DNA of 64,000 nt, from assembly GCA_963847445.1 (NCBI GenBank), contig CAWJZV010000045.1, forward strand, positions 128,001 to 192,000. Reading direction: 5' to 3'. How positions within the stretch are numbered: the first letter of the stretch is position 1; the number at the start of each line of letters is the position of its first letter. Source of the stretch: an uncultured delta proteobacterium. Its GTDB lineage: Bacteria; Desulfobacterota; Binatia; UBA9968. Below are positions 29,979 through 44,550 of this stretch, in pieces. The position numbers and the translations under genes were made by a program. The notes under the pieces are model-generated. The model worked only from the letters and a program-made list of their open reading frames with translations, did not search any database and was not told the origin of the DNA.

Positions 29979-30539
29979 TCAGCCCGGAGGAATCTTCTCG
30001 ATCAGCTTCCCATTGATGAAAAGTTCATAGCCTTTCAAACTCAATTCATAACCGCGCGGCGGGTGGTCGGACATGTCGCTGACGACTAGGTCTAGGATCA
30101 GCAGCGTCTCGGTCTTGGGCCGGACTTCGTAGGCGAGTTTGAATGGGCCAATGGTGTTTTTGACCGGGGCTTTGCGTTGGGTTTTTTTCAACACGCCGGC
30201 GGTATTCTTAATTTTCAAATGAAAGGCATCGAAGGCGCCGGCGTCTATTGGCGCGCGAAATACTTGGGCGGTTTTCTTGCCGACGTACTTGGTTAGATCG
30301 ACCGGCTCTGAAGTGACGGCGAGGTCTTTCCAGCCGGTCTGCCAGAACTTCAGACCGGGTTTTGGGCTGACGGCGATTTTATCGATGGTGACAATGAGTT
30401 TGTCAAAATCGCCGATGGCGTCGCGGTGGTCTTTGATTTGGACTTCCAGGATACCTTGTTCACGCTCGGCGGCGGGCGCGTGAGTCGATGCGCCGACGAT
30501 CAACAACAATGCGATTAGGATTTTTCCGATTCGAGCCAT
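29979..30539 (-). CDS. Exported DUF4382-like protein
   Basis: Signal peptide; GILEVQIKDHRDAIGDFDKLIVTIDKI...VDLTKY...LILDL...DHPP. Confidence 0.6.
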   Translation of the reverse strand: MARIGKILIALLLIVGASTHAPAAEREQGILEVQIKDHRDAIGDFDKLIVTIDKIAVSPKPGLKFWQTGWKDLAVTSEPVDLTKYVGKKTAQVFRAPIDAGAFDAFHLKIKNTAGVLKKTQRKAPVKNTIGPFKLAYEVRPKTETLLILDLVVSDMSDHPPRGYELSLKGYELFINGKLIEKIPPG

Positions 30540-31106
30540 TTGATGTCTTTCAGGACTTCTTTGACGAGCCACTTGTCGCCGTAGTAGTCGACGCGTCGGA
30601 TGCCCTTGGCATCGATCAGCGTTGTTAGGTTGGTGTGCTGGATCTGGCCGTTGCCGTGGTCTTTGACGTTGACGCCGAAATTTTTCCAGACTTCGGCGAG
30701 ATCATTTTGCGAGCCGGTGAGGAAGTGCCAGTGCTTCACATCGGCCTTGAATGCTTCGCGCATAGGCCTTCATCTTCGCCGGCGTGTCGCGTTTGGGGTC
30801 GGTGCTGATGCTGAGCAGTAAATAATTCTCGCGCTTCTCTTCGTCGAGGGCGCGCTGAATCGCCGCGAAGTGGGCGCTGAACAGCGGGCAGACATCCGGG
30901 CAGGTGGTGTAGACGAAAGTGACCAGGACAACTTTGCCGCTCGCCGGGTTGAAGTTAATCTTTTTGCCGGCTTGATCGATCAGCGTGAAGCTCGGCGCGG
31001 CGACGTTGGTCTCGCGCCGGCCGATCTCGCCTTTCTTGGGCGGGATGGGAATATGCGCGTGCAGCTCGGTGATCAACAAACTCAGCGCTAAGCAGTACTG
31101 CGCCAA
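30515..31106 (-). CDS. SCO1/SenC family protein (frameshifted)
   Basis: FVYTTCPDVCP, ISTDPKRDTP, WHFLTG, IQHTNLT. Confidence 0.9.
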
Positions 31107-31114
31107 GTACGAAT

Positions 31115-32003
31115 CTACTTTTCGACTTGGAAGTCATAGGTGACCTTGACTTGCTTGGACCCGTCGGGCAGATCGCCGCGGACCATGTAGGTCGACGAGA
31201 ACTCTCGGTCTTCGCCCGGCTTCAGTTTGACCGGCAGGAGCAAGGCGCACTCGACTAGATCGAGATGTTGGCGCAGTTCTTGGGGCTCGACGCGGTGCAC
31301 GATGCGGGTGGCGATGGTTTCTTGAGAGAGCGTTGCGCACGCGGTAGGCGATGGTGAAGAGCTCGTTGGCGCGCACGCTGGTCTCGCGGTTGAGCGGCGT
31401 GGCTTCGATGGCTTCATTTTGCGGCACGGTGGCGTCGTATTGCACGCGCAGTCCGGCGGCCCAGTCGAACAAGACGCGCCACAGGCCGTTTTCCTTGACC
31501 AGCGTCAGTTCTTCTTCGCCTTCGATGAACTTCAATTTGCCGGCGCGGCGCAGATCGTCGAGGGTGGTGAGGATCTCTTTCTGCTTCTGCACCGGCAGAG
31601 CGTTGAGTTTGTCTTGGTCCCAATCGAGTAACAGTGCCGATAGGCTGTTAGCGTCGGGCAACTTGATATTGAATTTGACTTTGGTTGTCGCGTCGTTTTC
31701 CGTTGCGCCTATCTGACGGACTTCGATCAGCTCGGCGAGCTTTCCAGCCACCGTCAATGTGAAGCCGCTAAACGGTCCCTTCTCCTGGATATAGAGATCC
31801 TCGGACTTGATCAGCCGGTCGCGATTGGAGATCAGCCGATAGGCTTTTTTGTGATCGTGGGCGTATGCGCTCTTGAGATAGTTGTTGATCGTGCGTACCG
31901 GTCCGGACTGACCGCCGTTGTTGGGCGCCGAGAGTAAATAATAAGGCGGCAGCACCAGCAGGATGGCGGCGGCCGCGGACCAGATTAGATTGGCAATTTT
32001 CAT
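31115..32003 (-). CDS. Membrane-anchored protein with a C-terminal Cox11/CtaG-like domain (paralog 3)
   Basis: IVHRVEP...LDLVECALLLPVKLKPGEDREF...DLPDG...VTYDF resembles the Cox11 C-terminus; frameshift near 31325. Confidence 0.65.
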
Positions 32004-32918
32004 GGTTTTGCAGAGTCAAGCGGTGACACGCTCACTGCGTAAGTGACGCTGAGCTGGCGCACTTGGTCGGGCAGCGTGCCGCGCAATAGATAAGTCGTGA
32101 CGAACTCTTCTTCCTTGCCGGGTTGCAAGCGCAGCGGCAGGATGAAACCACAGTCGACCAGATCGAGATAGTCGCGCAGCTCTGGCGGTTCGATCAGAGT
32201 GGCCGATACGGGTCGAAAGAGTCTGTTTACCGGTGTTGGTGATTTTCATCGCGACGCGAAAAACTTGTCCGGGCCGGGAGGTCACTTCGCTCTGGGCAAT
32301 CCTGATTGCCACCGGCGCTGACGCCGGGATCGCCGGCTGAAAGGTCAACTTGACGCCGGCCGCCCAGTTCAGAAAGAGTTTCCAGCCGCCGGCTTCTTTG
32401 ACCAGGTTGAAGGTCTCCTCGCCGGCCACCATGGCGATTTTTTTGTCGCGCCGTTGGCGGTCGATGGTGTCCAACAGCGTTTTGCGTTCACTGGCGGATA
32501 GTCTTTCCAGCCGCTCGCTCTCCCAATCGAGCATCAATGGGTTCAGTTTCGTCGCATCCGGCACGTTGGCGGTGACTTTCACCGTGCCGCGCTCCCCGTC
32601 GACGCGCAGTTCCACAACGCGAACGCTAACGCTCTGCGCCACGGCTCGCGCCGCTTCCAGGGTAAAATCGCGAAACTCGCCGCGCTCCCGATTGTAACTA
32701 TGCACATCCTTTAGACGTTGGTCGGCGCTGGAAATTTGCTCGTAGGCGGCGCGAAAATCGCGGGCGTAAAGCGCCTTCACATAGTTTTCGATTACCGTAG
32801 TGATTTCCTGGCGCTCATCCGCCTTGGCGAACTCGGCCAACAATGCCATCGACACCATGGCGCCGAGGAACATGGCAGGGGACAGGAGTCGGCGCGACGA
32901 CGAAAGTAGTCTCTTCAT
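32000..32918 (-). CDS. Cox11/CtaG-like domain protein (paralog 2)
   Basis: Same N-domain; RIGH..PPELRDYLDLVDCGFILPLRLQPGKEEEF...LSVTY after a frameshift near 32195. Confidence 0.65.
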
Positions 32919-32963
32919 GGAACCGGGCAGTGAAACCGTGGATCTAGCAATCGGGATGAGAAG

Positions 32964-42995: not shown

Positions 42996-43412
42996 TTAGT
43001 GCTTCATCTCTGGCGTCGTGGTGACCAGCTTGCCGTTTTGCACACCTTTGGTGGCGATCAGTTTGCTGGCAATTTCATGGACCTTGTCGGCGCGGCCGCG
43101 GATGACGATGACTTCCAGGCAGTTATGCTCGTCGAGATGGATGTGCAGGCTGGCATTCACGGCCACCGCCGCTTTGTGCTGCATGTCTGCCAGCACGTCG
43201 CTCAGGTGGTGGATTCGATGATCGTATACCAGCGTGACGACGCCGATCACTTCGCTGTCGCCCTGGCCGACTTTCTTCTGGATCAGGTGGTCGCGAATCA
43301 AATCGCGAATCGCCTCAGAGCGATTCTGATAGCCCATGCCGCCGATGCTCAGGTCGAAGGCGGCCAACAGATCTTCTTCCAGCGAAACGCCGAAACGCGA
43401 TAGATGATGCAT
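42996..43412 (-). CDS. nikR: Nickel-responsive regulator NikR
   Basis: RHH domain RFGVSL...YQNRSEAIRDLIR; Ni ligands QH...HIHLDEHNCLE. Confidence 0.95.
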   Translation of the reverse strand: MHHLSRFGVSLEEDLLAAFDLSIGGMGYQNRSEAIRDLIRDHLIQKKVGQGDSEVIGVVTLVYDHRIHHLSDVLADMQHKAAVAVNASLHIHLDEHNCLEVIVIRGRADKVHEIASKLIATKGVQNGKLVTTTPEMKH

Positions 43413-43433
43413 AGAATTCCTTTGCTGAACTTC

Positions 43434-43460
43434 GTAACACAAATTTTAAATCTGTGTCAA
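43434..43460 (-). promoter_or_regulatory. Second NikR-like operator over the nikR -35 box
   Basis: GTAACAC-N13-GTGTCAA; contains TTGACA on the minus strand. Confidence 0.65.
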
Positions 43461-43520
43461 ACCTCCACGCGGTTACCCCCTCAGTTGGTTGCGTTGATTC
43501 GCTGTGCTAGGTCTAGTGAC

Positions 43521-43949
43521 GTGAGTTCATTTGGCCTAATTGCAACTTCACTCCTTTTTGCCTTTGTCGCCGGATGTGGCCGCAATGAACGCATGGACCT
43601 GATCTACGGCCAACGCTGTGCGAACTGCCATGGTCCGGGCGGCCGCGGCGATGGACAGATTGCGGCTTCGTTGCAAACGCCGCCGCCGGATTTTCGCGAG
43701 ACCGTGCAGCGCAAAAGCAACAGCCAGATTAGAAGAGTGATTGCCGAGGGCAAAGGTTCCATGCCGGCTTTCGATCCGGCGCTGCGGCCATCGGAAATCA
43801 ACGATATGTTACAGATGGTTCGCTTCCTGAGCCGGGAAGGGCGCGATCTCGCCTGGTGGGAGAAGTACGATACCTTGATCGCAGCCCATTGCAGTATCCC
43901 ATGGGAAGCGGCGCTGGGGCTCGACGATCCGCCGGAGAAAAAACCGTGA
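43521..43949 (+). CDS. Monoheme cytochrome c lipoprotein
   Basis: Lipobox VAGC, CANCH, MPAF; extra C-terminal AHC. Confidence 0.85.
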   Translation: MSSFGLIATSLLFAFVAGCGRNERMDLIYGQRCANCHGPGGRGDGQIAASLQTPPPDFRETVQRKSNSQIRRVIAEGKGSMPAFDPALRPSEINDMLQMVRFLSREGRDLAWWEKYDTLIAAHCSIPWEAALGLDDPPEKKP

Positions 43950-44550
43950 AATTGAGCTTCGCTTACTTCCTTGGTGGTCATGGCGCTTTCGATTAACTCA
44001 ATCGGCAGTTATAGCCGGCGCGCATGAGATCCATCAGAAAACCGTTGAACGTCGTGCGGTGCAAGATTCCAATTAATGATTTCACTCTGGTTGATCAGAA
44101 TTCGCGCGAGTTTAAGTTCGGCCACTTGGCTGGACGGGTGGTTGTCGTGGCGTTTGCTTATACCACTTGCCCCGATGTTTGTCCGCTGATCACGGCGGCG
44201 CTGCGCCAGGTGCAGAGCGGCTTGACTCCGGAGGAACGCAAGAAAGTTTTCTTGCTCACCATCACGACCGATCCGGAAATCGACTCGCCGAAGGTTCTTG
44301 CAGGCTACGGCAAACGCTACGGCGCAGATTTTACCAATTGGTCGTTTCTTTCCGGCGATCAAGCGGCGCTGCAAAAGGTCTGGAAGAATTTTGGCGTGGG
44401 CGTGAAGCGCAAGGGCCGGGGTTTAGTGGATCACACGCCATTGACGGCGGTGGTCGATCGGCAGGGCCGGATGCGCGTGGCCTATGTCGGCCCAGCGCCG
44501 GATGCGAAAGCGGTGCTGAAGGATGTCCGTAGTTTGCTTAGTGCAATGAA
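43946..44550 (+). CDS. SCO1/SenC family protein (ends uncertain, indels)
   Basis: FAYTTCPDVCP, ITTDPEIDSP, VDHTP. Confidence 0.88.

What the first reader, a model, noticed from the sequence alone, without database searches (positions are those of the whole stretch)
29979..44550. Candidate undescribed system: NikR-associated envelope metal uptake and maturation locus built from copper-chaperone folds
Seen on the minus strand: nikR, TonB receptor (His-rich plug), MFS, exbB, exbD, tonB, His-rich Ig-like protein, RAPP leader, BNR lipoprotein (CECC, CPH), TlpA, Cox11-like 1, methyltransferase, Cox11-like 2, Cox11-like 3, SCO, DUF4382. A cytochrome c and another SCO are divergent. Many junctions overlap (ATGA type). 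Known: NikR represses Ni uptake; TlpA, SCO and Cox11 assemble Cu centres of heme-copper oxidases. No oxidase, hydrogenase, urease or NikABC/NikMNQO gene is in the window. Inference: a pathway importing Ni (or a Ni/Cu chelate) and handing it through repurposed SCO/Cox11 folds to an unknown periplasmic client (BNR, DUF4382 or cytochrome c), with control at transcription (NikR) and translation (RAPP leader).
Basis: partly seen in the sequence, partly recalled or inferred. Interest (0 to 1): 0.85.

Follow-up and report, generated by a model that had tools for sequence, protein, structure and literature searches.

The report
NikR-controlled metal uptake and chaperone operon
An uncultured soil bacterium keeps metal-import genes and a set of copper-chaperone-like envelope proteins in one long operon under a nickel-sensing repressor, a pairing not yet described, and which metal the chaperones carry is still open.

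Summary
The gene list is real. On the minus strand lie nikR, a TonB-dependent receptor, an MFS permease, exbB-exbD-tonB, a His-rich Ig protein, a RAPP leader, a BNR lipoprotein, a TlpA-like protein, three NTF2+Cox11-like paralogs, an exported methyltransferase, SCO and DUF4382. A cytochrome c and a second SCO are divergent.

Most genes are broken by 1-nt indels. Relatives 95-97% identical are intact, so I read the breaks as assembly errors.

The block is conserved in related Binatia genomes:
- The Cox11-like protein occurs in 76 of 101 genomes of the order and in 0 of 88 genomes of other families of the class.
- NikR occurs in 43 of 101. In 22 of the 38 genomes with both, they lie within 22 kb on one contig.
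- Two conserved NikR boxes (GTAACAC-N13-GTGTTAC type) flank nikR. They are the only strong sites in the 7.2 Mb genome.

The RAPP leader is a variant of the copper-sensing CruR (DUF2946) arrest peptide. Relatives add CopC, CopD, DUF4198 and ZnuABC. Basal forms keep the CFCF copper motif and are sometimes fused to DUF4382.

Best reading: a nickel-repressed uptake operon that also makes a periplasmic chaperone relay, probably for copper. A pure nickel relay is not excluded.

The parts
43434..43460 (.). NikR box 1 (TTGACAC-N13-GTGTTAC) between nikR and the divergent cytochrome c gene
   Evidence: Seen. PWM score 34.2. The same site precedes nikR in L014, L021, L023, L024, L025 and L043, with a 26-nt variant in L015. 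It matches the reversed NikR signal of PMC545781.
42996..43412 (-). nikR, intact
   Evidence: NikR_C 9.1e-27 and RHH_1 4.8e-08. Best PDB relative is P. horikoshii NikR 2bj1, E 1.2e-36, with the QH...LH-H...C stretch aligned.
42953..42979 (.). NikR box 2 (GTAGCAC-N13-GTACTAT) between nikR and the receptor gene; it overlaps a promoter-like site at 42961-42989
   Evidence: PWM score 36.1, the best in the genome. Conserved after nikR in 7 loci. TTGACT-17-TAAATT was found by the promoter scan, but such sites are no more frequent in the region than by chance.
40885..42928 (-). TonB-dependent receptor with His-rich plug, read in three frames
   Evidence: Plug 8.1e-17. tblastn with the intact 681-aa L024 ortholog covers residues 4-681 in two pieces. 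The ortholog has Plug plus beta-barrel.
39456..40714 (-). MFS permease, read in three frames
   Evidence: MFS_1 in all three pieces. The L024 ortholog (406 aa) matches in three pieces.
38819..39445 (-). exbB (N-terminal end approximate, frameshifted)
   Evidence: MotA_ExbB 3.9e-33 on 38822-39253.
38405..38818 (-). exbD, intact
   Evidence: ExbD 4.6e-31.
37576..38401 (-). tonB, frameshifted
   Evidence: No Pfam hit on the pieces. The C-terminus matches L024 TonB at 61.5%. The L025 ortholog has TonB_C 3.7e-19.
37020..37560 (-). His-rich Ig-like protein (HisIg), ends approximate
   Evidence: Weak BiPBP_C hit. The same domain is the C-terminal periplasmic domain of CopD in L024. Present in 25 of 51 loci.
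36568..36964 (-). CruR-like RAPP arrest leader (one frameshift inside)
   Evidence: RAPPLA-stop at 36571-36588. The L024 ortholog gives DUF2946 E 0.002, 19.3 bits. 21 of 25 orthologous ORFs carry RAPP, and all 21 have a Cys 47-48 residues before it.
35150..36476 (-). BNR/sialidase-like lipoprotein with CECC and CPH motifs (C-terminus frameshifted, end approximate)
   Evidence: Weak BNR_2/BNR hits. The Atlas places the ortholog in BNR_2 clusters. The motifs are found in 14 of 14 orthologs.
34581..35100 (-). TlpA-like thioredoxin (WCDPC), start approximate
   Evidence: AhpC-TSA 2e-25 and Redoxin 1.4e-20. It follows BNR in the loci that hold both (BNR in 17, TlpA in 18 of 51).
33634..34500 (-). 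NTF2+Cox11-like paralog 1 (motif HLLEP...VECGL), at least 4 frameshifts
   Evidence: Three-frame reading. tblastn with L024 CoxL. Related contigs lack one base at 33683, 33738, 33945 and 34064.
32964..33551 (-). Methyltransferase with N-terminal signal peptide, intact
   Evidence: Methyltransf_31 3.6e-10. The ortholog is closest to the archaeal protein-lysine methyltransferase model, 133.9 bits, below its cut-off of 200. Present in 40 of 51 loci.
32000..32918 (-). NTF2+Cox11-like paralog 2 (motif ...VDCGF), one frameshift
   Evidence: Homologs at 95-97% identity are intact at 305 aa. P0002 gives PF04442 at 24.4 bits. Model pLDDT 83.4, top PDB match apoCox11 1so9.
31115..32003 (-). NTF2+Cox11-like paralog 3 (motif HRVEP...VECAL), one frameshift
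   Evidence: The related P0099 gives PF04442 at 39.4 bits.
30515..31106 (-). SCO (CPDVC plus His), one frameshift
   Evidence: SCO1-SenC 2.3e-21 on the N-terminal half. The C-terminal half is in another frame.
29979..30539 (-). DUF4382 protein
   Evidence: DUF4382 2.3e-09. Present in 41 of 51 loci. Fused to the Cox11 domain in a sister family.
29427..29445 (-). Terminator-like hairpin after DUF4382
   Evidence: 7 pairs, 5 of them G-C, then a T-rich tail. This is a pattern match only.
43518..43949 (+). Divergent c-type cytochrome lipoprotein (CANCH)
   Evidence: Cytochrome_CBB3 5.6e-10. Translation. Divergent from nikR in L014, L023, L024, L025 and L043.
43966..44686 (+). Divergent SCO (CPDVC), ends uncertain
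   Evidence: SCO1-SenC 4.8e-27. Indels in relatives at 44006, 44066 and 44536.
23889..25400 (-). Third SCO (24753-25400) and a VKOR homolog (about 23889-24695). In relatives these follow DUF4382 directly; here two lactonase-type beta-propeller genes (26166-28994) lie between.
   Evidence: tblastn 52.9% to L024 SCOc and 52.9% to L025 VKOR. VKOR Pfam 5.8e-25 in L025. Propellers. The SCO-VKOR pair is in 19 of 51 loci.

Best explanation
This is one metal-starvation operon with two layers of control.

Shown:
- nikR is intact and has the usual nickel-site residues.
- Two conserved NikR operators sit at its own promoter and at the promoter of the downstream genes.
- The genes run co-directionally with short gaps.
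- The arrangement is conserved across an order of Binatia.

Inferred:
- When cytoplasmic nickel is plentiful, Ni-NikR sits on both boxes and shuts the operon.
- When nickel is scarce, a long transcript is made.
- Its first genes import nickel, probably as a chelate. They are the TonB-dependent receptor with its own ExbB-ExbD-TonB and an MFS permease. In relatives the importers are ZnuABC-like, NicO-like, DUF4198 or CopCD.
- Further down, a CruR-type leader stalls the ribosome at RAPP unless its exported, His-rich, Cys-bearing nascent chain meets metal. This gates the distal genes.
- The distal genes make a periplasmic carrier set of copper-chaperone descent: the His-rich Ig protein, the BNR lipoprotein with a Cys4-His motif, three NTF2+Cox11-like proteins, SCO and DUF4382. 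TlpA-like and VKOR enzymes set their thiol state.
- I think it most likely that these carriers take up the copper that enters by the same route. They would pass it to membrane cuproenzymes (the genome has four heme-copper oxidase loci) and so also keep copper off the nickel path.

The metal carried by the distal set is the weakest step.
For: NikR:
- Both domains are present and the site residues align with 2bj1.
- Operators of consensus GTAACACGAAT-N5-ATTCGTGTTAC occur before and after nikR in the window and in 7 loci.
- In the 7.19 Mb genome only these two sites score above 20 bits: 36.1 and 34.2, next best 19.9. They were part of the training set.
- The motif equals the reversed NikR signal found before nickel transporter genes (PMC545781, passages).
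- Box 2 overlaps a promoter-like site.

Operon:
- In the intact ortholog L024, 13 genes lie on one strand with gaps of 125 nt or less.
- 28 of 35 loci with at least 3 kb visible upstream of the first Cox11-like gene have an importer or NikR there.
- NikR and the Cox11-like gene lie within 22 kb on one contig in 22 of the 38 genomes that have both.

Nickel side:
- DUF4198 in relatives (73 bits) is a nickel-binding family with NikR and TonB neighbours (PMC12537917, passages).
- A NicO-like gene follows nikR in L055 (23.5 bits, below cut-off).
- Urease is present in this genome.

Copper side:
- Canonical SCO CxxxC.
- CopC and CopD in relatives.
- Basal Cox11-like forms keep CFCF and score 92-94 bits on PF04442.
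- The leader is of the CruR type, whose operons elsewhere hold Sco, PCuAC, CopC and AhpC_TSA genes (PMC9426467, passages and section 10).
- Four COX1 loci lie in the genome.
Against: - No expression or metal-binding data exist.
- No NikR-regulated copper-chaperone set is known, so a mixed reading needs a reason for the coupling, and I can only guess at one.
- The window's three Cox11-like paralogs have lost the second Cys of CFCF and gained an invariant His. This does not fit a plain Cu(I) carrier.
- The leader lacks the CXXC of CruR and is His-rich.
- This genome has no CopC, CopD or DUF4198.
- L005, L029 and L034 carry the chaperone block without a NikR box, and family f2 has it with NikR in 0 of 28 genomes. 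The coupling is therefore not obligatory.
- 27 of 43 NikR-bearing genomes show neither urease nor NiFe hydrogenase, so nickel demand is unclear.
- An internal promoter before the leader cannot be excluded.
Confidence: 0.4

Rival explanations
1. All-nickel system. The importers bring in nickel. The SCO, Cox11-like, His-rich Ig, CopC/CopD and DUF4382 proteins have been repurposed as periplasmic Ni(II) carriers that feed the inner-membrane importers. The His-rich RAPP leader senses nickel.
For: - One metal would explain both controls.
- The NikR boxes are the only strong sites in the genome and sit only at this locus.
- The minimal operon in L052 is nikR-ZnuABC-Cox11-like-DUF4382-SCO-VKOR with short gaps.
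- The window-type paralogs replaced CFCF by one Cys plus an invariant His and an acidic residue.
- The leader has no CXXC but 4-17 His.
- DUF4198 binds nickel (PMC12537917).
Against: - Five families (SCO, Cox11, CopC, CopD, TlpA) and the CruR leader have only copper precedents.
- SCO and CopC keep their canonical copper ligands.
- Basal forms keep CFCF.
- 27 of 43 NikR-bearing genomes lack urease and NiFe hydrogenase hits.
- Family f2 keeps the block without NikR.
Confidence: 0.25
2. All-copper system: a copper-starvation uptake and cuproenzyme-maturation locus in which a NikR-family repressor has been recruited, either responding to copper or using nickel only as a safety signal.
For: - The toolkit matches what is known for oxidase copper delivery: TlpA, Sco, Cox11, CopCD, a TonB-dependent receptor, an MFS importer and a CruR leader (families shown; pathway recalled).
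- The genome has four COX1 loci and no stand-alone Cox11.
- In the class sample PF04442 hits occur only at these loci, in 7 of 101 genomes.
Against: - NikR keeps the four nickel-site residues and a NikR operator of the type found before nickel transporters.
- No copper-sensing NikR is known.
- 0 of 51 loci hold COX1.
- The other families of the class do without any Cox11: 0 of 88 genomes.
- The receptor gave no hit to the copper-receptor model in NCBIfam.
Confidence: 0.2
3. Two independent modules, a NikR-controlled nickel uptake unit and a CruR-gated copper chaperone unit, that merely lie next to each other. The second has its own promoter.
For: - The chaperone block occurs without NikR or its box in L005, L029 and L034 and in family f2.
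- The leaders are followed by long gaps of 83-237 nt, as at operon heads.
- The importer types next to nikR vary.
Against: - Same strand and short gaps throughout.
- The minimal L052 operon has no leader between ZnuABC and the Cox11-like gene.
- Linkage is kept in 22 of 38 genomes across three families.
- L004 kept box 1 and a nikR remnant directly before the chaperone block.
Confidence: 0.12
4. In this genome the locus is a decaying pseudogene cluster and the frameshifts are real.
For: About 15 frame breaks in 14.5 kb.
Against: - Breaks occur all over the window, and few ORFs exceed 400 aa.
- The genome has 48 contigs for 7.2 Mb.
- Proteins 95-97% identical are intact.
- Related short-read contigs differ by single-base indels at 89 places, several at the breaks.
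- No in-frame stops or large deletions were seen.
Confidence: 0.03

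Closest known systems
NikR regulons with the GTGTTAC/GTAACAC-N13 signal in delta-proteobacteria (Rodionov et al. 2004, PMC545781; passages read)
   Same: The regulator family, the 27-nt inverted repeat and its half-sites are the same. 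So is the reversed orientation reported for Desulfotalea, and the position before transporter genes.
   Different: There the targets are nikMNQO-type transporters and a hydrogenase. Here they are a TonB-dependent receptor, MFS or ZnuABC importers, and a set of SCO and Cox11-like proteins.
NikR-repressed TonB-dependent nickel uptake of Helicobacter pylori (FrpB4 with ExbB-ExbD-TonB); recalled, not from a call
   Same: An outer-membrane receptor and its energising ExbB-ExbD-TonB set are under NikR.
   Different: Here all lie in one operon with nikR, with an MFS permease as the likely inner-membrane step and a long chaperone tail. The receptor shares only plug-level similarity with solved receptors.
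CruR (DUF2946) copper-responsive arrest leader of Bordetella pertussis (PMC9426467; passages and section 10 read)
   Same: - A small exported protein.
- RAPP two to three residues before the stop.
- A fixed Cys-to-RAPP distance (45 there, 47-48 here).
- A long gap to the next gene.
- Downstream genes of the Sco, CopC and AhpC_TSA kinds.
   Different: - No CXXC: one Cys or C-x8-C.
- A PHRVHH motif and a His-rich stretch.
- Below the Pfam cut-off (19.3 against 23.7 bits).
- It sits inside a larger NikR-headed cluster instead of first.
- Found in Binatia, whereas the family was reported mostly from Proteobacteria.
Cox11/CtaG copper chaperone (PF04442; solved structure 1so9/1sp0)
   Same: The beta-sandwich fold (Foldseek E 1.7e-5, TM 0.68 by target). 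It is the only PDB sequence hit of the family profile (E 1.5e-5). Basal members keep CFCF.
   Different: - An NTF2-like domain lies between the membrane anchor and the Cox11 domain.
- The genome holds three paralogs.
- The second Cys is lost and a new invariant His-x-x-(E/D)-P is present in the window's type.
- There is no linkage to cox genes.
- The domain is fused to DUF4382 in a sister family.
DUF4198 periplasmic nickel-binding proteins with NikR and TonB neighbours (PMC12537917, passages read); a zinc-capturing member, Zcp (PMC12663993, listing and start of abstract only)
   Same: Relatives of this locus carry a DUF4198 gene with an N-terminal His after the signal peptide, next to nikR and a TonB-dependent receptor.
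   Different: This window and its genome have no DUF4198. In the relatives it is followed by CopC and CopD.

Membership tests
NikR (nickel-responsive ribbon-helix-helix repressor) | N-terminal RHH domain plus C-terminal NikR_C domain | tested here: met
   RHH_1 4.8e-08 and NikR_C 9.1e-27, above cut-offs.
NikR (nickel-responsive ribbon-helix-helix repressor) | His3-Cys high-affinity site residues | tested here: met
   The QH...LH-H-x5-C stretch aligns column for column with P. horikoshii NikR 2bj1. Which residues are the ligands is recalled.
NikR (nickel-responsive ribbon-helix-helix repressor) | 27-28 bp inverted-repeat operator at regulated promoters | tested here: met
   Two sites in the window and in 7 loci. 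Same half-sites and N13 spacing as in PMC545781.
NikR (nickel-responsive ribbon-helix-helix repressor) | Nickel-dependent DNA binding | not testable with these tools
   Needs a binding assay.
Cox11/CtaG | Cox11 beta-sandwich fold | tested here: met
   The model of P0002 (pLDDT 83.4) has 1so9 as its top PDB match: E 1.7e-5, rmsd 2.8 over 111 columns.
Cox11/CtaG | Score above the Pfam PF04442 cut-off (25 bits) | tested here: inconclusive
   The window's own broken ORFs give no hit. Intact window-type homologs give 24.4, 29.5 and 39.4 bits. CFCF-type relatives give 91.9 and 93.5 bits.
Cox11/CtaG | CFCF copper-binding motif | tested here: not met
   The window has VECGL, VDCGF and VECAL. The single Cys aligns with the first Cys of CFCF. 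Of 87 motif instances, 4 are CFC, but the locus set is biased by the search pattern.
Cox11/CtaG | Linkage to cytochrome oxidase genes | tested here: not met
   COX1 is found in 0 of 51 loci with flanks of up to 10 kb. The genome's COX1 loci are on other contigs.
CruR / DUF2946 arrest leader | C-terminal RAPP close to the stop codon | tested here: met
   Window: RAPPLA-stop. 21 of 25 orthologous ORFs have RAPP, 20 of them with a 2-residue tail. The 4 without come from broken or short ORFs.
CruR / DUF2946 arrest leader | CXXC motif about 45 residues before RAPP | tested here: not met
   There is no CXXC. A conserved Cys lies 47-48 residues before RAPP in 21 of 21, alone or as C-x8-C.
CruR / DUF2946 arrest leader | Pfam DUF2946 score above cut-off (23.7 bits) | tested here: not met
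   19.3 bits, E 0.002 for the L024 ortholog. No hit for the window ORF at E 0.01.
CruR / DUF2946 arrest leader | Export signal, and first gene of an operon with a long gap to the next gene | tested here: inconclusive
   A hydrophobic N-terminal segment is seen in all by eye. The gaps to the next tblastn-matched gene are 60-296 nt in most (83-237 before BNR or x314); L001's leader abuts BNR, and five show 880-1253 nt because unmatched genes lie between. The leader lies inside a longer co-directional cluster.
SCO1/SenC | Thioredoxin fold with CxxxC and a distal His | tested here: met
   SCO1-SenC 2.3e-21 and 4.8e-27. CPDVC in both, with the His seen in the sequences.
CopC/CopD copper import pair | Presence of CopC and CopD genes | tested here: not met
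   No tblastn hit for CopC or the CopD core in the whole genome; only the His-rich Ig domain matches. Present in relatives: CopC in 16 and CopD in 21 of 51 loci. The CopD count includes matches to the query's C-terminal His-rich Ig domain alone.

The most novel reading that the evidence does not exclude
In this order of Binatia the classical copper-chaperone folds (NTF2+Cox11-like with a His/Cys site, SCO, CopC/CopD, the His-rich Ig domain) work as a periplasmic Ni(II) relay. A His-rich variant of the CruR RAPP arrest leader senses nickel outside the cytoplasm. The whole system would then be a nickel system under NikR.
Probability: 0.25. Interest if true: 0.9.

Novelty: new variant of a known kind. 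Interest (0 to 1): 0.62.

Why it matters
Every part has a known family. The combination does not appear in the literature I could search: a nickel repressor heading an operon full of SCO and Cox11-type proteins.
- 'NikR' with 'Cox11': 0 papers.
- 'NikR' with 'CopD' and 'TonB-dependent': 2 general papers.
- 'DUF4382': 1 unrelated paper.

If the distal proteins carry copper, this is the first case of nickel status controlling copper handling, and a lead on how cells keep the two metals apart in the periplasm.

If they carry nickel, it would be the first periplasmic nickel chaperone relay and the first nickel-sensing arrest peptide.

It also defines three things:
- A new Cox11 subfamily: NTF2 fusion, altered metal site, DUF4382 fusion.
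- A functional context for DUF4382.
- An extension of the CruR leader family outside its Pfam model.

All parts are small soluble proteins or short DNA sites that can be tested in vitro without culturing the organism.

Tried and rejected
- Another genetic code as the cause of the broken frames: rejected. The breaks are frame changes, and all three stop codons occur.
- The PF04442 search of the own genome found nothing. This is explained by the frameshifts and the weak scores of this subfamily, so it is not evidence of absence.
- RNA evidence: no RNA holder listed.
- Fold of the fused Cox11::DUF4382 protein: poor (pLDDT 66.7, pTM 0.39). Its Foldseek matches have TM below 0.25 except NTF2-like ones. 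Nothing was learned about DUF4382 or a domain interface.
- PDB sequence searches did not settle the metal. The receptor matched only plug regions of BtuB, Cir and FepA. The ZnuA-like protein matched Mn, Fe and Zn binders alike.
- The Atlas search of the BNR protein gave only generic sialidase-like clusters.
- The promoter scan found 8 sites against 8.2 expected, so it is not informative beyond the one site on box 2.
- The NikR box before the chaperone block in L004 looked like independent evidence, but it is followed by a nikR remnant, so it is a deletion relic.
- The two beta-propeller genes downstream are not conserved neighbours: no hit in 51 loci.
- The methyltransferase paralog near a COX2-COX1 pair on contig C6 lies two genes away. 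I did not take it as a link.

Full report
**What is there.** The window is part of contig C45 of a 7.19 Mb genome in 48 contigs, 91.8% complete and 6.9% contaminated. The closest homologs are named Candidatus Binatia bacterium by their sources. On the minus strand, from 43412 down to 29979, lie the following genes:
- nikR
- a TonB-dependent receptor
- an MFS permease
- exbB, exbD and tonB
- a His-rich Ig-like protein
- a small RAPP-ending ORF
- a BNR lipoprotein
- a TlpA-like thioredoxin
- a Cox11-like gene
- a methyltransferase with a signal peptide
- two more Cox11-like genes
- SCO
- DUF4382

A c-type cytochrome lipoprotein and a second SCO are divergent from nikR (Pfam; coordinates).

**State of the sequence.** The region is full of frame breaks. 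The receptor and the MFS gene each read in three frames. Cox11-like 1 has at least four shifts. ExbB, TonB, the leader, BNR, Cox11-like 2 and 3 and SCO have at least one each.

I read these as assembly errors, for these reasons:
- Long ORFs are scarce in the whole window.
- Eight proteins named Binatia are 95-97% identical to Cox11-like 2 up to the break and are intact at 305 aa.
- Contigs of four public runs, 90-99% alike, differ from the window by single-base indels at 89 places. Of these, 12 were listed, among them 33683, 33738, 33945 and 34064 inside Cox11-like 1.

Those contigs come from relatives, not from the same strain. Polishing is still needed.

**The Cox11-like proteins.** The broken window ORFs hit no Pfam family, and a six-frame PF04442 search of the genome found nothing.
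- Intact homologs score 24.4, 29.5 and 39.4 bits against a cut-off of 25.
- A model built on 15 sequences (pLDDT 83.4) has a long N-terminal helix, an NTF2-like domain and a C-terminal beta-sandwich.
- Its best PDB match is apoCox11 1so9: E 1.7e-5, TM 0.68 by target, rmsd 2.8.
- The family profile hits only 1so9/1sp0 in the PDB, at E 1.5e-5. The invariant Cys aligns with the first Cys of CFCF, and the second Cys is replaced.
- Invariant residues of the domain include R237, H240, P244 and C256.
- The DSSP string places H240 and C256 on neighbouring strands of a hairpin. That they form one site is my inference.

**Conservation.** A scan of one genome per species gave 51 loci, most of them from Binatia MAGs. 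tblastn with the window's proteins, and with proteins of two intact loci, gave a common plan:
- divergent SCO and cytochrome c;
- nikR;
- receptor and/or MFS, sometimes exbBD, then tonB;
- often ZnuABC-like genes;
- a RAPP leader;
- often DUF4198, CopC and CopD ending in the His-rich Ig domain;
- sometimes a second leader with BNR and TlpA;
- one to three Cox11-like genes with the methyltransferase and an SCO between them;
- SCO;
- DUF4382;
- a third SCO and a VKOR.

Counts over the 51 loci:

| Component | Loci |
|---|---|
| Cox11-like | 50 |
| SCO | 49 |
| DUF4382 | 41 |
| methyltransferase | 40 |
| CopD (includes matches to the query's His-rich Ig tail alone) | 21 |
| VKOR | 19 |
| BNR | 17 |
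| CopC | 16 |
| NikR | 7 |
| COX1 | 0 |

Many loci are short, so low counts partly reflect what is visible. Of 35 loci with at least 3 kb visible upstream of the first Cox11-like gene, 28 have an importer or NikR there and 7 do not.

**Distribution.**
- In a sample of the class, the Cox11-like family occurs in 7 of 101 genomes, all in the window's own order. It occurs in 0 of 88 genomes of the other 16 families.
- PF04442 hits occur in 7 of 101, six of them inside the Cox11-like matches and one (36 bits, G065) at a remnant of the same block. I saw no stand-alone Cox11 in the class sample.
- NikR occurs in 8 of 101.
- In a sample of the order, the Cox11-like family occurs in 76 of 101 genomes: f1 53/67, f3 3/5, f2 19/28.
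- In the same sample NikR occurs in 43 of 101: f1 37/67, f3 5/5, f2 0/28.
- Both occur in 38 genomes. In 22 of these they lie within 22 kb on one contig. In most of the rest the assemblies are fragmented.
- Urease alpha occurs in 12 of 101 and the NiFe hydrogenase large subunit in 14 of 101. Of the 43 NikR-bearing genomes, 16 have one of them and 27 have neither at E 1e-20.

These tallies include two unpublished genomes, G158 and G181. No conclusion rests on them.

**Simpler and basal forms.**
- In a closed genome (L052) the operon is nikR, ZnuABC-like, Cox11-like, DUF4382, SCO, VKOR, with short gaps. Its Cox11 domain keeps CFCF and scores 93.5 bits.
- In family f2 there is no NikR, and the Cox11 domain (CFCF) is fused to DUF4382 in one protein of about 480 aa. 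This is seen in 12 of 13 loci examined.
- In L055, nikR is followed by a weak NicO-like membrane protein (23.5 bits, below cut-off), a porin-like protein, a leader, DUF4198, CopC, CopD, a CFCF Cox11-like gene, SCO and VKOR.
- The importer next to nikR varies, while the Cox11-like/SCO/VKOR tail stays.
- Among 87 motif instances in all loci and the window, 38 read CAL, 32 CGF, 10 CGL, 4 CFC and 3 other. The first 51 loci were found with a pattern that demands C[GA].

**Control by NikR.**
- The protein has both domains. It aligns over its full length with P. horikoshii NikR at E 1.2e-36, including the His and Cys of the metal-site stretch.
- A 27-nt inverted repeat lies between nikR and the cytochrome c gene (43434-43460). 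Its left half reads TTGACA.
- A second repeat lies between nikR and the receptor gene (42953-42979).
- The same two sites occur in all 7 loci that show nikR. The consensus is GTAACACGAAT-N5-ATTCGTGTTAC.
- A matrix built from 15 sites finds only these two above 20 bits in the whole genome: 36.1 and 34.2, next best 19.9. Both were in the training set.
- In the loci it also finds sites before a second MFS gene (L015), before ZnuA (L013) and before a receptor gene (L021).
- The half-sites and spacing equal the NikR signal predicted before nickel transporters in delta-proteobacteria, in the reversed orientation reported for Desulfotalea (PMC545781, passages).
- The promoter scan places TTGACT-17-TAAATT on box 2. 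This fits repression by bound NikR.

**The RAPP leader.**
- In the window the ORF starts at 36964, shifts frame once and ends RAPPLA-stop at 36571-36588. That is about 90 nt before the BNR start at 36476.
- Of 25 orthologous ORFs, 21 carry RAPP, and 20 of these have exactly two residues after it.
- All 21 have a Cys 47-48 residues before the Arg, and all 21 have a PH[RQ][VI]HH motif after the hydrophobic N-terminus.
- The L024 copy hits DUF2946 at 19.3 bits, below the cut-off of 23.7.
- DUF2946 is the CruR family. In Bordetella the nascent protein senses copper through CXXC, 45 residues before RAPP, and thereby controls Rho termination before a receptor gene. Its homologs head operons with Sco, PCuAC, CopC, YcnI and AhpC_TSA genes (PMC9426467, passages and section 10).
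- The Binatia leaders share the architecture but not CXXC, and they are His-rich. One type precedes BNR-TlpA, the other precedes DUF4198-CopC-CopD.

**Which metal.**

For nickel:
- NikR and its operators.
- DUF4198, a nickel-binding family with NikR and TonB neighbours (PMC12537917, passages). Another member captures zinc (PMC12663993, listing only).
- The NicO-like gene in L055.
- His-rich tails on the ZnuC and MFS proteins.
- Urease in this genome.

For copper:
- Canonical SCO and CopC ligands.
- CopD and a TlpA-like protein.
- CFCF in basal forms.
- The CruR-type leader.
- Four heme-copper oxidase loci with no other Cox11.

Neither the receptor nor the ZnuA-like protein resembles a solved protein of known nickel or copper specificity. 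This genome has no CopC, CopD or DUF4198. I therefore hold a mixed model as most likely (0.4): nickel-sensed transcription and nickel import, with a copper-type carrier set gated by the leader. The alternatives are an all-nickel system (0.25) and an all-copper system (0.2).

**Comparison and novelty.** Each part belongs to a described family, with these departures:
- The Cox11-like proteins fail the CFCF test in the window.
- The leader fails the CXXC test and the Pfam cut-off.
- The methyltransferase is predicted to be exported, which is odd for a SAM-dependent fold.

The combination of NikR with SCO and Cox11-type genes was not found in print. 'NikR' with 'Cox11' gave 0 papers. 'NikR' with 'CopD' and 'TonB-dependent' gave 2 general papers. 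'DUF4382' gave 1 unrelated paper. The Binatota genome paper mentions copper only for membrane monooxygenases, and mentions neither nickel nor Cox11 (PMC8262859, passages). Supplementary tables were closed and might list such loci. I rate it a new variant of a known kind of system.

Noticed in passing
window 1-64000: Frame breaks are not confined to the finding. Few ORFs exceed 400 aa anywhere in the window, which fits an indel-rich long-read assembly.
   Followed up: partly
window 32964-33551, and at least 15 other places in the genome (contigs C6, C7, C15, C22, C24, C30, C36, C44, C48): The signal-peptide methyltransferase belongs to a family greatly expanded in this genome (43-82% identity, four copies in tandem on C30). 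Its closest model is an archaeal protein-lysine methyltransferase. An exported SAM-type enzyme is unexpected. One copy lies two genes before a COX2-COX1 pair on C6.
   Followed up: partly
window 26166-28994 (-): Two lactonase-type seven-bladed beta-propeller genes lie between DUF4382 and the SCO-VKOR pair, which are adjacent in relatives. They have no counterpart in the 51 related loci.
   Followed up: partly
window 44929-46735 (-): Two ORFs without a Pfam hit (225 and 274 aa) are conserved next to the divergent SCO-cytochrome c pair in L004, L005 and L029.
   Followed up: no
genome contig C28 at 55438: A different 27-nt palindrome (CATGAATTT-N-AAATTCATG core; 19.9 bits on the NikR matrix) lies about 8 kb from a COX1 gene on the same contig.
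   Followed up: no
window 42980-42995 and the same place in 7 loci and L052: A run of 6-8 T directly after the nikR stop codon is conserved. In the window and L014 it supplies the first hexamer of the promoter-like site on box 2.
   Followed up: partly
L056 (G065) 9760-10575: A short remnant holding only the CFCF stretch of the Cox11 domain is fused in front of DUF4382. Upstream lies a 1294-aa fused ABC exporter with two membrane and two ATPase domains.
   Followed up: partly
window 35574-35765 (-) and 14 orthologs: The BNR lipoprotein carries GLCECC(K/R)LG in 14 of 14 orthologs and CPHSGP(S/T) in 13 of 14, which could form a Cys4-His metal or cluster site. It is always paired with the TlpA-like gene.
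   Followed up: partly
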